DNA of 64,000 bases from the human T2T-CHM13v2.0 reference genome, Homo sapiens. The stretch is from the NCBI GenBank assembly GCA_009914755.4, contig CP068257.2, positions 23,904,001 through 23,968,000 of the forward strand, in the 5' to 3' direction. The notes below the pieces were generated by a model that was not told the origin of the DNA, did no database searches, and saw nothing but the letters and a program-made list of their open reading frames with translations. The number at the start of each line of letters is the position of its first letter. The stretch's first letter is position 1. Made by a program: the position numbers and the translations under genes. Positions 56,071 through 61,483 of the stretch are shown piece by piece.

Positions 56071-57308
56071 TCTATCATTTTCTTGTTCAACTATTTCAAC
56101 AAATATTTATTAAACACCTACTGTATGTATATCAAGAACTAGGTCCAATAAGGGAAATGGTCCCTATCTTCACATTCGACCGTTTATGTTACAAGACAAA
56201 ATTAAAATATCATATCTAGAGACTAGCCAAGTTGTGTGAGACCTTAGAGAAAAGAGGATTAATTTTGACAAGGAGAAACTTAGAAGTTTCCACAAAGCAG
56301 ATGGCCTTTTAATTGAATTGTAAAAGATAAATAGGATTTTAATAGAGAGAAAAGAAAATGCTCACATTTGGCGAAAGCATCAACAAAAGCAAGGTGGATA
56401 ACACAGCATAAACCATTAGTGACTGATATGGTTTAGCCCTGTGTTCCCACCCAAATCTCATCTCGAACGAAGGAGAGACCTGGTAGAAGGTGACTGGATA
56501 ATGGGGCGGTTTCCCCCAGGCTGTTCTCTTGATAGTGAGTTGAGTTCTCATGAGATCTAATGGTTTAAAGGTGTTTAGCAGTTCTTCCCTCACTCTCTCT
56601 CTTGCCTCCATGTAAGATGTTCCTGCTTCCCCTTCTACTATGATTGTTAAGTTTCCTGAAGCCTCTCCAGCCATGAAAAATTGAGTCAATTAAACTTCTT
56701 TTCTTTATAAATTACCCAGTCTCAGGGAGTTCTTTATAGCCGTGTGAAAACGGACTAATACAGTGACCAAGTACTCTAAAGAGGCCAGAGCAAGGAGGAA
56801 GTGGAAAGAAGCAGGGGGGAGGCCAAGCTGGAAAGGCAGGCTGGGAACAGATTATACAGGGCCTGGAAAGCTATGTGAATGTTAACAGGTAGGCAAGTTC
56901 TTTAGGTTTAAGTGACATGATCCTTGGACAAGTCACTTAATAAAGCTGTTATATGCCTGTAAAAGAACAACTTTTAAGTAACGAAAAAAAATAGTGGGGG
57001 GATGGGTAAGCAGAAAGAGTTAAAAAGTTATTGAAATCATCTAGATAAGATGGTCAAAGGCTGAATTCAAGCAGTAGCAGTGGAAATGGAATCACCCACA
57101 ATATAGAGAGTGATTAATGAATGTAAGTTGAACAAAGATATGAATATAAAAGACATAGCGTACAAAAATACCCACAAATGGATGCCACTGATAAGTTCTG
57201 AACTACAAAAGTGCCTAATCTAACAGGTAAAACATTGACTAAAGAGTACAATACAACATTTGAACTTGGCCATATTTTTACATTACACCCCATAGAAAAC
57301 AGGTCTTA

Positions 57309-57524
<216 letters not shown>

Positions 57525-57575
57525 TTATCTAACAAAATCCAGAGTGAAAAGTTACATGTTTAAGTGCTATATTTA

Positions 57576-57902
<327 letters not shown>

Positions 57903-59109
57903 TTACAAAATTTGTTCAGGCTACATCTAGTTTGAAATTAATTTGCTAATTATTAATGAAAAAAGTTACACTTGAATATTCAGAGAGCAGCATCATGGAT
58001 ACATTTGGATAGATACACACACAACTCAAAGTAAAAGGGAAATATATTAATACACACCTTCAAAAATCAGTTCTAGATTGGTTTTGGGTCTTGCTCCCAA
58101 ACCATCTCTTATTTCCATGACATAGATGCTTCAAGTTAAATACAGTAGTTATCATTTTTTAATAATTAATATTAACTCCCGGATAAGCCAATCAGCTCTG
58201 GTCTGTTTCATCATCCCAGAATGCAATGCCAACTGTTAATGCCAATTAGATGTTCTGCAATTACACAGCTACTCACAAAAGTAGTCAAACTACAAGGTCT
58301 AAATTATCAACCACTACATAAACCCCGTAAAGTCAGGGATCATGTCTACTTTTGCTCACTCATCAGTATATCCAGAGTCTAGCACCAGGCCTGGAATATA
58401 GCAGGTGTTCAATAACAGTTTACTGAATGACTGCAAGCATGAATGACAAGAACGTCTCATGGCAGGGGTCATGCTGAGGATGTTTCAGAAGCTTCATCAC
58501 TACATGTGATGTGTATAAAGCTCCTTAAGGGCCTGAGTTTTGTCTTATCCTCCTCTGTAGTCCTAATGCCTATCATATCGCAGAGGTTCCAGAAATACTT
58601 GAAAACCAAATGAGTAAATATTTATAAGTACTAATTCAAATGCCAGAGTGAAGGAAGATTAAGAGTGAGTGTACACTCTCTAGGCCAGTTTAAGCTGATA
58701 ACTAAAGTTGTTAATTACTTAAATGGAATGGTTACTGAGTTTTCCAAAAGTTTAAGCAATGCAGCTAGTCATGCCTGTATCTGTTTTGGGGCTTCTTTAG
58801 TTTAAATATTACCAGTTCTATCAAACGTACTATCAAAACATTTTGATCAAAAATAAAATATAGAAGTTCTTATTCCCTTCATTTCCACACAAAATCACAC
58901 ATGGGGCACAGTTGTCTCCTTTAAGATATACATAAATACTTTTACCCCAATCACATTCACCCCATGCACATTCCCACTCACACATTTACCACATGTACAT
59001 CTAAATGTCAACAAAAATACAACACAGAGAGAGCCAAGTGGAAAGCAGATGATAGATTAAGTTAGGCTATACAATGAAGAGGGGAGAAAGAAAAAGGCAG
59101 CAAAAAAAA

Positions 59110-59926
59110 GCTGATCATCTGAGGCCATGGCAATCCCTTTACACCAAAATCCTTTCTTGAGACCTGCACGGTGACTCCTCCCACCACATCACAGCCCTAG
59201 CTAAAAGGAGCAAGCAAATTCCAGCTACTTGGGAGGCTGAAGCAGGAGGAGAGCTTGAGGTCAGAAGTTCAAGACCAGCCTGGGCACCACAGCCACCCTC
59301 TCTCTCAAAAATAAAAATAAATTAGCCAGGTGTGATGGTGGGCACCTGTAGTCCCAGCTACTTGGTAGGCTGAGGCTAGGAGTTTCAGTGAGCTATGATA
59401 GTACCACTACACTCCAGCCTGGGAGCAGGGCCAGACCCCCATCTCTAAAATTAAATTAAATTAAAGGAGAAAGCACACTAGTAACAATGCACTCAGGTCT
59501 GGCCACCTTCTGCCAGAAAATTATCTAGTACCATAAACAAAGCCAGATTCAAACAAGCGCCAGGCAGGACAATCTGTGCACTACAGTGCCAACCTTGCAA
59601 TACTCAGAGTACCCTCCAGAACTACAGGGACAGTGAATAGACAATAAGGTGCCAGATAAAGAACCTCTGGGAAGTCCAGGGACTTCTGCGCCCACCACAT
59701 CTGGCTAATTTATTTCTATTTTTATTTTTTGAGAGACAGGGTGGCTATGGTGCCCAGGCTGGTCTTGAACTTCTGGCCTCAAGCTATCCTCCTGCTTCAG
59801 CCTCCCAAGTAACTGGGATTTGCTTGCTCTTTTTAGCTAGGTCTGTGATGTGGTGGGAGCAGTCACCATGCAGGTCTCAAGAAAGGATTTTGGTATAAAG
59901 GGATTGCCATGGCCACAGATGACCAG
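59110..59926. repeat. Inverted duplication. Left arm 59110-59345, right arm 59682-59926 (about 240 bp each, roughly 90% identical). The spacer is about 336 bp.
   Basis: Left: gctgatcatctgaggccatggcaatccctttacaccaaaatcctttcttgagacctgcacggtgactcctcccaccacatcacagccctagctaaaaggagcaagc... Reverse complement of right: ...ctggtcatctgtggccatggcaatccctttataccaaaatcctttcttgagacctgcatggtgactgctcccaccacatcacagacctagctaaaaagagcaagc. The homology continues through the first half of the Alu. Confidence 0.85.
59219..59468 (+). mobile_element. 5'-truncated, internally deleted Alu that is part of the left arm of an inverted duplication
   Basis: cccagctacttgggaggctgaagcaggaggagagcttgaggtcagaagttcaagaccagcctgggcaccac...ccagcctgggagcagggccagacccccatctc. 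Confidence 0.8.
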
Positions 59927-60010
59927 AAGTAATTACAGCATCCTGTCTCCTGCACCAGTGCTTCCACACAGCTTAAGTAAAAGGGTCAAAACTGTAACCT
60001 GATTCTGCTA

Positions 60011-60286
<276 letters not shown>

Positions 60287-60689
60287 TCAGAGGTAAAATT
60301 AAACCAATTTGTAATATTAACAAACACCAGCGGAAGAAACAGAGCTGGCCCAGATACGTGCCTCTACTTTTAAATTTGGCTCTTTCACATCAGATCGCTA
60401 TTTCCCACCAATTTCCTGTGTCGTGTTTCCAATCAGTGCTTTACAATAAGGGGCAAAAAGTAACCAGGAAACGGAGTCAAAACTGGACTAGAGTCATTGG
60501 GAAGGTGAACAAAGTGGTCGGTTTGACAGGGTCTGAAGAAAAACAAGAAAATTTCAGGAAACCAAAGGTCCCACACCGAAACTATCAATATCCAGAATGA
60601 GAAATGCTGAGTTTATATCCCAAAGGCCAAATCAGGGAACCTGCCAAGGCAAGTACGAGTATTCCTTGGGAAGACATGGACAGATGTGC

Positions 60690-61483
<794 letters not shown>

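What the first reader, a model, noticed from the sequence alone, without database searches (positions are those of the whole stretch)
59110..59926. Roughly 240-bp inverted duplication with a 336-bp spacer inside MRPL39 intron 2
The two arms are about 90% identical in inverted orientation. Each includes 110 bp of unique flank plus the first half of a truncated Alu. The arrangement therefore arose by inverted segmental duplication, not from two independent Alu insertions. Such structures can form long hairpins in pre-mRNA or DNA. They may be ADAR substrates, replication-fork obstacles, or sites of rearrangement.
Basis: seen in the sequence. Interest (0 to 1): 0.5.

Follow-up and report, generated by a model that had tools for sequence, protein, structure and literature searches.

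The report
Old inverted duplication in MRPL39 intron
A 245-base piece of MRPL39 intron 2 (107 bases of ordinary intron plus the front half of an old Alu) was copied backwards and inserted 323 bases away roughly 30-45 million years ago; it can fold into a long RNA hairpin, evolves like neutral DNA, and is an ordinary example of a known kind of mutation.

Summary
Arms 59111-59355 and 59679-59926 are reverse complements: 93% over a 207-nt ungapped core and 89% with gaps.

Galago and colugo have one copy of the flank, in the left-arm position and orientation. They have no Alu, and the site of the right arm is empty. Red colobus and siamang have both arms with the same junctions.

The left arm is therefore the source. 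It holds a 5'-truncated AluJ-like element with a 13-bp target-site duplication and an A-rich tail. The right arm is a derived inverted copy. It has no poly-A and no target-site duplication. Its junctions show only 1-4 nt of microhomology, and no target base was lost. This fits a single switch-and-return template switch or fold-back repair synthesis.

Arm divergence places the event shortly before the ape/Old World monkey split. No New World monkey DNA could be obtained.

MRPL39 is on the minus strand, and the hairpin starts 88 nt after the exon 2 donor site. The predicted stem has 230 bp around a 323-nt loop, so it is a plausible ADAR substrate, but editing was not tested. The arms diverge at the neutral intronic rate, with no compensatory changes. 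Low interest.

The parts
59111..59217 (+). U: ancestral single-copy intronic sequence, the non-Alu part of the left (source) arm. Its last 13 nt (59205-59217, AAAGGAGCAAGCA) are the 5' target-site duplication of the Alu.
   Evidence: It is present once, in this position and orientation, in colugo (L003 2474-2579, inside a continuous alignment of window 59216-57841 to L003 2474-3829). It is also present once in galago (L002 2188-2231).. There are only two copies in the window.
59218..59463 (+). AluJ-like element, 5'-truncated at about consensus position 27. It has an internal deletion in the right monomer and an A-rich tail (AAAATTAAATTAAATT). It is antisense to MRPL39. Only its first 138 nt (59218-59355) belong to the duplicated arm.
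   Evidence: Rfam SRP and mir-1268 partial hits mark the start of the right monomer at 59323. The element is absent from galago and colugo.
59464..59476 (+). 3' target-site duplication of the Alu (AAAGGAGAAAGCA), matching the 5' copy at 12 of 13 positions.
   Evidence: blastn of U against the window picks it up. Colugo has this sequence once, at the point where the two colugo alignments overlap (L003 2474-2485).
59111..59355 (+). Left arm: the source segment of the inverted duplication (245 nt = U plus Alu consensus positions about 27-167).
59356..59678 (.). Spacer, which forms the hairpin loop (323 nt). It consists of the rest of the Alu (59356-59463) plus ancestral unique intron sequence (59464-59678).
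   Evidence: 59464-59680 aligns colinearly to colugo L003 2293-2485 and galago L002 1999-2166. The orientation is the same in human, siamang and colobus.
59679..59926 (-). Right arm: the derived inverted copy (248 nt). 59820-59926 is the reverse complement of U, including the copied 5' target-site duplication. 59679-59819 is the reverse complement of the Alu part. The inner 10-12 nt (59679-59690) are of ambiguous origin: either a diverged continuation of the Alu (AGTCCC) or a snap-back copy of the adjacent GGACTTC.
   Evidence: It is absent from colugo, where window 59926 and 59680 both map to L003 2293. It is absent from galago, where L002 1993 and 2004 flank the site. It is present with identical junctions in colobus (L001 2075-2305+) and siamang (L004 2094-2341)..
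59927..60014 (-). 88 nt of intron 2 between the hairpin and the exon 2 donor site (GT at 60014-60013).
   Evidence: Sequence read directly. Exon 2 located by tblastn.
60015..60222 (-). MRPL39 exon 2 (context only, not part of the repeat).
   Evidence: tblastn 98.5% over residues 26-93. Human-colobus divergence is 1.9% here, against 5-8% in the intron.

Best explanation
This is a fixed, neutral inverted duplication in intron 2 of MRPL39.

Sequence of events:
1. Shown: an AluJ-like element, 5'-truncated, inserted by ordinary L1-mediated retrotransposition between U and the downstream intron sequence. It left a 13-bp target-site duplication and an A-rich tail.
2. Shown for the outcome, inferred for the mechanism: later, in a catarrhine ancestor, a growing DNA strand that had reached the position now at 59678/59927 left its template. 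It re-annealed through 2-3 nt (CC/GG) to the same-sense strand 323 nt behind, either its own nascent strand folded back or the other template strand in the fork. It then copied 245 nt backwards, from 59355 to 59111.
3. The strand then returned to exactly the base it had left. There is only 1-4 nt of microhomology at that junction (CTGR), and no target base was gained or lost.

In the four-point template-switch notation this is a 3-2-1-4 event. A broken end that folded back, primed on itself and was then end-joined would give the same product.

Consequence, predicted but not measured: MRPL39 is read from the minus strand, so every pre-mRNA carries both arms. Starting 88 nt after the exon 2 donor site, they should fold into a stem of about 230 bp. 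About 93% of arm nucleotides are paired, the longest perfect helix is 54 bp and the loop is 323 nt. A stem like this is a typical promiscuous ADAR substrate, and it is discarded with the intron.

Nothing indicates that the structure is used. The arms decay at the neutral rate.
For: - Repeat and its extent.
- Gene, strand and intron.
- Ancestral state: colugo joins window 59926 directly to 59680 at L003 2293. It joins the spacer directly to U with the target-site-duplication sequence present once, and U runs on colinearly into the upstream intron. Galago shows the same.
- Derived state with identical junctions in colobus and siamang.
- The left Alu has a target-site duplication (12/13) and an A-rich tail. 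The pre-insertion site reads TTTT|A on the bottom strand.
- The right arm has no poly-A and no target-site duplication, and the ancestral target ACTT|CCTGRACTTCCC is intact on both sides of the insert.
- Six-arm comparison: orthologous arms group together (hR-sR 2.8%, hL-sL 5.4%, hR-cR 6.2%, hL-cL 8.2%). Paralogous pairs differ by 7.9-10.5%. Only 1-2 substitutions plus one 3-bp indel separate all left arms from all right arms, against about 4-9 lineage-specific changes per arm. The copy was therefore made shortly before the catarrhine radiation.
- Neutrality: human-colobus divergence is 6.2% in the right arm and 8.2% in the left arm. It is 4.8-7.5% in the neighbouring intron and 1.9% in exon 2. 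Only one site changed in both arms of one species, and it is a CpG.
- RNA fold: -552 kcal/mol against -287 +/- 11 for shuffles, z = -23. There are 230 inter-arm pairs, 7 of them G-U, the longest helix is 54 bp, and 110 adenosines are paired. The same stretch without the right arm folds to only -202 kcal/mol.
- The 3-2-1-4 event type and its ability to create RNA hairpins are described in PMC5453318.
Against: - The mechanism is inferred from junction anatomy about 30 My after the event.
- The inner junction (59679-59690) differs from the source at 3 of about 12 positions. It can also be read as a 7-nt snap-back copy of the adjacent target, so there may have been more than one switch.
- The copied tract (245 nt) and the jump (323 nt) look much longer than the template-switch examples shown in the great-ape literature read here, which are tens of bp. 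The 2017 screen required only a copied fragment of at least 10 bp.
- A gene-conversion episode just before the catarrhine split would erase the signal of an older duplication.
- The siamang left arm carries two right-arm states near the inner end, so some exchange between arms may occur.
- Editing was not tested. No paper in the library mentions MRPL39 together with A-to-I editing.
- In a genome-wide prediction, most computed dsRNAs were not edited on both arms (PMC11838218).
Confidence: 0.8

Rival explanations
1. Break repair rather than fork template switching. A double-strand break at the target site was resected. The 3' end folded back on its own strand through 2-3 nt of microhomology and primed 245 nt of synthesis. 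The extended end was then joined to the other break end by end joining.
For: This gives the same product as the best explanation. It fits the 1-4 nt junction microhomologies, the absence of target loss, and a cluster of differences at the priming end (59679-59690) that suits error-prone synthesis.
Against: Nothing here separates it from an intra-fork switch. Exact restoration of the target without loss of a single base is somewhat easier to explain by switch-and-return than by resection plus end joining.
Confidence: 0.3
2. An ordinary inverted Alu pair: two independent Alu insertions in opposite orientation that happen to lie 350 bp apart.
For: Such pairs are common. The window has others, for example 34284-34582 / 34916-35214, 84.7% over 300 nt with a 333-nt spacer.
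Against: Homology continues for 107 nt beyond the Alu at 93.5%. Both arms have the same truncation point, and the right arm holds a copy of the left Alu's target-site duplication. The right arm has no tail and no target-site duplication of its own. Outgroups have only one U.
Confidence: 0.01
3. An ancient palindromic element (MITE or DNA transposon with long terminal inverted repeats, or a pre-existing palindrome). An Alu landed in one arm and was copied to the other arm by gene conversion.
For: The arms start with CTGRTCATC / GATGAYCAG, which resembles terminal inverted repeats. A possible short conversion tract is seen in siamang.
Against: Colugo and galago have no second U and an exactly empty site where the right arm sits. 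There is no target-site duplication around the whole 816-bp unit. There are no further U copies in the window. The spacer is not itself palindromic.
Confidence: 0.01
4. A selected RNA structure. The hairpin would be maintained because it recruits ADAR, modulates splicing of exon 2/3, masks cryptic splice sites of the antisense Alu, or yields small RNAs.
For: It has been retained in three catarrhine lineages. It lies only 88 nt from a donor splice site. Long intronic duplexes can induce editing at nearby sites (PMC4053975).
Against: The arms diverge as fast as, or faster than, the surrounding intron. Pairing decays independently in each species: arm-to-arm difference is 7.9% in human, 9.2% in siamang and 9.9% in colobus. 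There is no compensatory pattern. No predicted primate isoform uses sequence from this intron. There is no Rfam family hit above threshold. Retention is what neutrality predicts for a 250-bp insertion.
Confidence: 0.05
5. An assembly artefact: a fold-back chimera in the reference sequence.
For: Inverted duplications can arise as cloning or sequencing chimeras.
Against: The same structure, with lineage-specific substitutions in each arm, is present in independent assemblies of red colobus (GCA_002776525.5) and siamang (GCA_028878055.3).
Confidence: 0.005

Closest known systems
Template-switch mutations of the four-point model, type 3-2-1-4 (Loytynoja & Goldman 2017, PMC5453318), and the classic Ripley intra/inter-strand switch
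   Same: A nearby segment is copied in reverse complement and placed into the nascent strand. Departure and return points are adjacent. The product is a new inverted repeat able to form an RNA hairpin. The ancestral state lacks it.
   Different: Scale. Here the copied tract is 245 nt and the jump is 323 nt, whereas the human-chimp examples shown in the paper are tens of bp. The screen itself excluded repeat-masked fragments, so an event like this one, half of it Alu, would have been filtered out.
Inverted Alu repeat pairs (IRAlus) as intramolecular dsRNA and ADAR substrates
   Same: A hairpin of several hundred bp within one intron, half of it Alu sequence. The expected fate is the same: nuclear editing, then removal with the intron.
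   Different: It is not two retrotransposition events. The right 'Alu' is a secondary DNA copy, and 107 bp of each arm are non-Alu. The arms are more alike (about 93%) than the window's true inverted Alu pairs (76-86%), because they diverged from one locus rather than from two source copies.
FoSTeS / MMBIR and fold-back inversions (PMC2621351; ODIRA, PMC10766183)
   Same: Microhomology-primed switching to the opposite-sense template, giving an inverted duplication with junction microhomology of 1-4 nt and possible short junction complexity.
   Different: Those models were built for kb-to-Mb copy-number variants and amplifications. This is a 0.25-kb local event with precise return and no copy-number change of flanking DNA.
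Long, highly paired dsRNAs of the human dsRNAome (dsRNAscan, PMC11838218)
   Same: An intronic intramolecular duplex predicted from sequence.
   Different: It falls short of that paper's 'long and highly paired' class (>300 bp and >96% paired). It has about 230 bp and about 93% pairing, so it belongs to the ordinary bulk of the roughly 5 million predicted dsRNAs.

Membership tests
Template-switch (switch-and-return) inverted duplication | The inserted tract is the reverse complement of a nearby sequence on the same chromosome. | tested here: met
   59679-59926 is the reverse complement of 59111-59355: 93% ungapped, 89% gapped.
Template-switch (switch-and-return) inverted duplication | The ancestral (outgroup) sequence lacks the inserted tract and contains the source. 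| tested here: met
   Colugo and galago have an empty target site and a single U at the source position.
Template-switch (switch-and-return) inverted duplication | Departure and return points are adjacent. There is no target-site duplication and no poly-A, and junctions show at most a few nt of microhomology. | tested here: met
   The ancestral ACTT|CCTGRACTTCCC is intact around the insert. Microhomology is CTGR at the outer junction and CC at the inner junction.
Template-switch (switch-and-return) inverted duplication | Short range, compatible with a single replication fork (the examples shown in the paper span tens of bp). | tested here: inconclusive
   A 323-nt jump and a 245-nt tract are local but far larger than the examples shown in PMC5453318.
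Inverted Alu pair (two independent retrotranspositions) | Each Alu has its own target-site duplication and A-rich tail, and homology ends at the Alu boundaries. | tested here: not met
   The right arm has no tail and no target-site duplication. Homology continues 107 nt into non-Alu flank at 93.5%.
Canonical Alu retrotransposition (left element only) | Flanking target-site duplication, 3' A-rich tail, T-rich nick site, and absence from outgroups. | tested here: met
   Target-site duplication at 59205-59217 / 59464-59476, 12/13 matching. Tail at 59446-59463. The site is empty in colugo and galago.
MITE / DNA transposon with terminal inverted repeats | A target-site duplication flanking the whole unit, multiple genomic copies, and insertion of the whole unit relative to the outgroup. 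| tested here: not met
   There is no target-site duplication at 59110/59927. U is only at this locus in the window. Outgroups have U and the spacer but lack only the right arm and the Alu. Copy number genome-wide was not testable.
ADAR-edited intronic dsRNA | A-to-G mismatch clusters on both arms in RNA-seq. | not testable with these tools
   There is no RNA data or REDIportal access. No paper pairs MRPL39 with A-to-I editing. The supplement searches found nothing: one paper's held files had no MRPL39 entry, and the other two papers had no supplement files held as text.
ADAR-edited intronic dsRNA | A long, mostly uninterrupted intramolecular duplex in a transcribed region. | tested here: met
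   230 bp, longest helix 54 bp, z = -23, inside MRPL39 intron 2 on the transcribed strand.
Functional conserved RNA structure | Reduced substitution rate and/or compensatory changes that keep pairs. | tested here: not met
   Arm divergence is 6.2-8.2%, against 4.8-7.5% in the neighbouring intron. Only one both-arm change was seen, at a CpG.

The most novel reading that the evidence does not exclude
Switch-and-return template switching may operate at the scale of hundreds of bases in the primate germ line, not only at tens of bp or at kb-Mb scale. It would then be an under-counted source of long, nearly perfect intronic dsRNA hairpins that include non-repeat sequence. This locus would be a clean, datable type specimen. 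Screens that mask repeats would have missed it. Its 107-nt non-Alu duplex would offer a unique-mapping read-out of ADAR activity on a 'young' hairpin.
Probability: 0.3. Interest if true: 0.35.

Novelty: new member of a known kind. Interest (0 to 1): 0.2.

Why it matters
It matters little for MRPL39 biology. The structure is intronic, about 30 My old, evolves neutrally, and sits among millions of predicted human dsRNAs.

Its modest value is as a well-resolved example. The source, the target, the empty site and both junctions are all recoverable. It therefore shows how a single replication or repair error can create a 230-bp RNA hairpin that is only half repeat-derived.

Because 107 nt of each arm are unique sequence, any A-to-G editing there can be attributed to this hairpin. 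In ordinary Alu pairs that attribution is hard to make.

It also shows that an inverted repeat of about 245 bp and 93% identity with a 323-bp spacer has persisted for tens of millions of years in three lineages without any fixed rearrangement.

Tried and rejected
New World monkey and tarsier orthologs (needed to bracket the date):
- The Saimiri (P0007) and Aotus (P0164) genes are annotated over about 198 kb, so no DNA was returned.
- Sapajus X3 (P0133) and Carlito X3 (P0136) are not on record.
- Four other primate isoforms (P0001-P0004) are also not on record.

Evidence for editing:
- No paper holds both MRPL39 and 'A-to-I'.
- The broader searches listed only generic ADAR and inverted-Alu papers; the single listed paper that mentions MRPL39 is a mitochondrial-proteome preprint, which was not opened.
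- The held supplement files of PMC4053975 contain no MRPL39 entry. PMC11838218 and PMC12695637 have no supplement files held as text.

Exonisation of the repeat: tblastn of 66 primate MRPL39 isoforms against the window found no coding segment specific to intron 2. The hits at 59308-59426 are cross-matches of Alu-encoded C-terminal tails that hit every Alu.

Known RNA family: only sub-threshold Alu-derived hits, mir-1268 at 56 bits (gathering score 83) and SRP at 21 bits (gathering score 70).

Rejected hypotheses: two independent Alus, a MITE or ancient palindrome, twin priming or retrotransposition of the right arm, and an assembly artefact. Reasons are given under the rival explanations.

Not attempted: scans of bacterial, viral or metagenome collections for U, which are irrelevant to a primate intron, and further whole-database protein searches, whose cost was not justified by the question.

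Full report
OBSERVATION. The repeat finder reports an inverted pair at 59111-59317 / 59720-59926 (207 nt, 93% complementary). A second colinear pair lies at 59307-59338 / 59692-59723. A gapped local alignment joins them into 59111-59355 versus 59679-59926, 224/252 = 89% including three indels in the A-rich Alu linker and a GTG run. The first 107 nt of the left arm (59111-59217) are not Alu. They match 59926-59820 at 93.5% (E = 1e-42) and occur nowhere else in the window. Coordinates, arm length, identity, flank length and spacer are all as described, within a few bases.

GENE CONTEXT. Later exons run down to 39274. All are on the minus strand. The database search with the same protein returns mL39 orthologs across vertebrates. 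Read from the sequence, exon 2 ends at 60015 and the donor GT is at 60014-60013. The right arm therefore begins 88 nt into the intron.

ANATOMY. After U, the left arm continues into an Alu on the plus strand, antisense to the gene.
- The Alu starts at about consensus position 27. It has an internal deletion in the right monomer and ends in an A-rich tail at 59463.
- It is flanked by AAAGGAGCAAGCA (59205-59217) and AAAGGAGAAAGCA (59464-59476), a 12/13 target-site duplication.
- Rfam sees only Alu-type sub-threshold hits, SRP and mir-1268, at the start of the right monomer.
- The right arm contains, in inverted orientation, U (including the copied 5' target-site duplication) and Alu positions about 27-167. 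It then stops. It has no tail and no target-site duplication of its own.

ORTHOLOGS. Cluster members of the mL39 hits gave access to four orthologous loci: red colobus (L001), galago (L002), colugo (L003) and siamang (L004).
- Colobus aligns colinearly at 94.2% over window 58500-60500, and siamang at 95.7% over 57300-61100. Both have both arms with the same junction sequences.
- In colugo, window 60276-59926 aligns to L003 1941-2293 and window 59680-59464 to L003 2293-2485. The two sides of the right arm are therefore directly adjacent. Window 59216-57841 aligns to L003 2474-3829. This overlaps the previous block by exactly the target-site-duplication sequence, so the Alu is absent too and U is single-copy and colinear with the left arm.
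- Galago shows the same arrangement: L002 1993/2004 flank the empty site, and U lies at 2188-2231.
- This polarises the event. The left arm is the source and the right arm is a derived insertion of an inverted copy made after the Alu had inserted.

JUNCTIONS AND MECHANISM. In gene sense the ancestral target reads ...ATTRCTT|CCTGRACTTCCCAG... in colugo and galago. In human it reads ...ATTACTT[CTGGTCATC ... GGTGGGCGCAGAAGTCC]CTGGACTTCCCAG.... No target base is lost or duplicated.
- The outer end of the insert (source CTGATC) shares CTGR with the target.
- The inner end shares CC.
- Human CA and colobus TG at 59344-5 point to an ancestral CG in the left arm. Identity with the right arm then runs through GGTGGGCGC.
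- Next come 3-4 changed bases (CTGT against AGA) and then AGTCCC. Alternatively, GAAGTCC is a snap-back copy of the adjacent GGACTTC. I cannot decide between these two readings.

There is no poly-A, no target-site duplication and only microhomology. That excludes retrotransposition, transposition and homologous recombination. The anatomy fits one switch-and-return of a growing 3' end onto the same-sense strand 323 nt behind. In the four-point notation of Loytynoja and Goldman this is event type 3-2-1-4, the type they show creates new inverted repeats and RNA hairpins (PMC5453318). A resected break end that folded back, self-primed and was then end-joined gives the same product. I rate the fork switch somewhat more likely because the target is restored to the base. 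Both readings are inference.

DATING. I aligned six arms: left and right in human, siamang and colobus.
- Orthologs group together: hR-sR 2.8%, hL-sL 5.4%, hR-cR 6.2%, hL-cL 8.2%.
- Paralogous pairs are 7.9-10.5% apart.
- Changes private to one arm or to the ape stem number about 4-9 per lineage. Only 1-2 substitutions and one 3-bp indel separate all left arms from all right arms.
- I take the ape/Old World monkey split as about 25-30 Mya, from my own knowledge. The copy, or the last homogenisation of the arms, then dates to a few My before that, roughly 30-35 Mya. The Poisson upper limit reaches the New World monkey split.
- No New World monkey or tarsier DNA could be obtained.
- There is no sign of continuing concerted evolution, with one exception. 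The siamang left arm shares a 3-bp deletion and a G>A with the right arms near the inner end. This may be a short conversion tract or parallel slippage.

CONSTRAINT. Human-colobus divergence is 6.2% in the right arm and 8.2% in the left arm. It is 5.0% in the unique spacer, 4.8-7.5% in the neighbouring intron and 1.9% in exon 2. Arm-to-arm mismatch has grown independently in each species: 7.9% in human, 9.2% in siamang and 9.9% in colobus. The only site changed in both arms of one species is a CpG. The spacer has the ancestral orientation in all three catarrhines. The structure is therefore neither conserved for pairing nor visibly destabilising.

RNA AND DNA STRUCTURE. The minus-strand transcript of 59090-59950 folds to -552 kcal/mol, against -287 +/- 11 for shuffles (z = -23).
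- The stem has 230 inter-arm pairs, 7 of them G-U. The longest uninterrupted helix is 54 bp, the loop is 323 nt and 110 adenosines are paired.
- Without the right arm, the same stretch folds to only -202 kcal/mol.
- As single-stranded DNA either strand could also fold, at about -300 kcal/mol. A 323-nt spacer makes cruciform extrusion unlikely (my knowledge of the inverted-Alu stability literature, not tested here).
- By the criteria of a genome-wide dsRNA survey (>300 bp and >96% paired for the rare 'long, highly paired' class; about 5.1 million predicted dsRNAs in all) this hairpin is ordinary (PMC11838218).
- 78.3% of 108,838 edited Alus in one compilation had an inverted Alu within 1 kb (PMC4053975). 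Editing here is therefore likely but unproven. No paper or held supplement reports MRPL39 editing.
- The window holds other inverted Alu pairs of similar size, for example 34284-34582 / 34916-35214, 84.7% with a 333-nt spacer. The pair studied here is simply the most similar one.
- No predicted primate isoform uses intron 2 sequence.

VERDICT. What is there is a catarrhine-shared 245-bp inverted duplication of intron plus Alu sequence. It was most likely made by one microhomology-primed template switch or fold-back synthesis. It now decays neutrally and is predicted to form a 230-bp intronic dsRNA. It is a new instance of a known kind of event. Its interest is low, apart from its value as a cleanly resolved mid-size template-switch example whose non-Alu duplex half could serve as a unique-mapping editing read-out.

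Noticed in passing
L004 (siamang) about 2665-2700, orthologous to window 59325-59355: The siamang left arm shares a 3-bp deletion and a G>A in the GTGGTGG run with all right arms. The human and colobus left arms keep the Alu-consensus length. This is either a short right-to-left gene-conversion tract in gibbons or parallel slippage.
   Followed up: partly
window 34284-34582 and 34916-35214: A conventional inverted pair of full-length Alus, 84.7% over 300 nt with a 333-nt spacer. Its hairpin potential is similar to that of the studied repeat. Further inverted pairs lie at 33740-34027/34289-34579 and 29072-29367/30655-30952.
   Followed up: no
window 41713-41874 (and every other Alu in the window): Many predicted primate MRPL39 isoforms have Alu-encoded C-terminal tails, for example bonobo X1 (P0135), residues 322-375. 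The best match is 87% at 41713-41874, which suggests an exonised Alu as an alternative last exon.
   Followed up: no
L002 (galago) about 2260-3000: A lineage-specific insertion of about 800 bp immediately after U. It contains tandem units of about 45 bp (GGTGAATGAACGTATTAGTGAATGGACATAGTTCAGTCC...) and a GC-rich segment.
   Followed up: no
window 59323-59374: Rfam mir-1268 hit (56 bits, gathering score 83) at the start of the Alu right monomer. This is Alu-derived similarity, not evidence of a miRNA gene. It overlaps the inner end of the left arm.
   Followed up: yes
window 59727-59732 (right arm, A-rich linker): The human and siamang right arms carry 6 extra nt (AAATAG / AAATAA) that are absent from the colobus right arm and from all left arms. 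This is an ape-specific small duplication in the linker.
   Followed up: no
Saimiri (GCA_048565385.1) and Aotus (GCA_030222135.1) MRPL39 annotations: The annotated gene range is about 198 kb in both New World monkeys, against about 21-31 kb in colobus, galago, colugo and siamang. This implies a far-away alternative exon or a read-through model in recent annotations.
   Followed up: no
window 59096-59110: An A-run (GGCAGCAAAAAAAAG) abuts the outer end of the left arm. It is ancestral, being present in colugo as GCAGCAAAAAAG, and is not a retroelement tail belonging to the repeat.
   Followed up: yes
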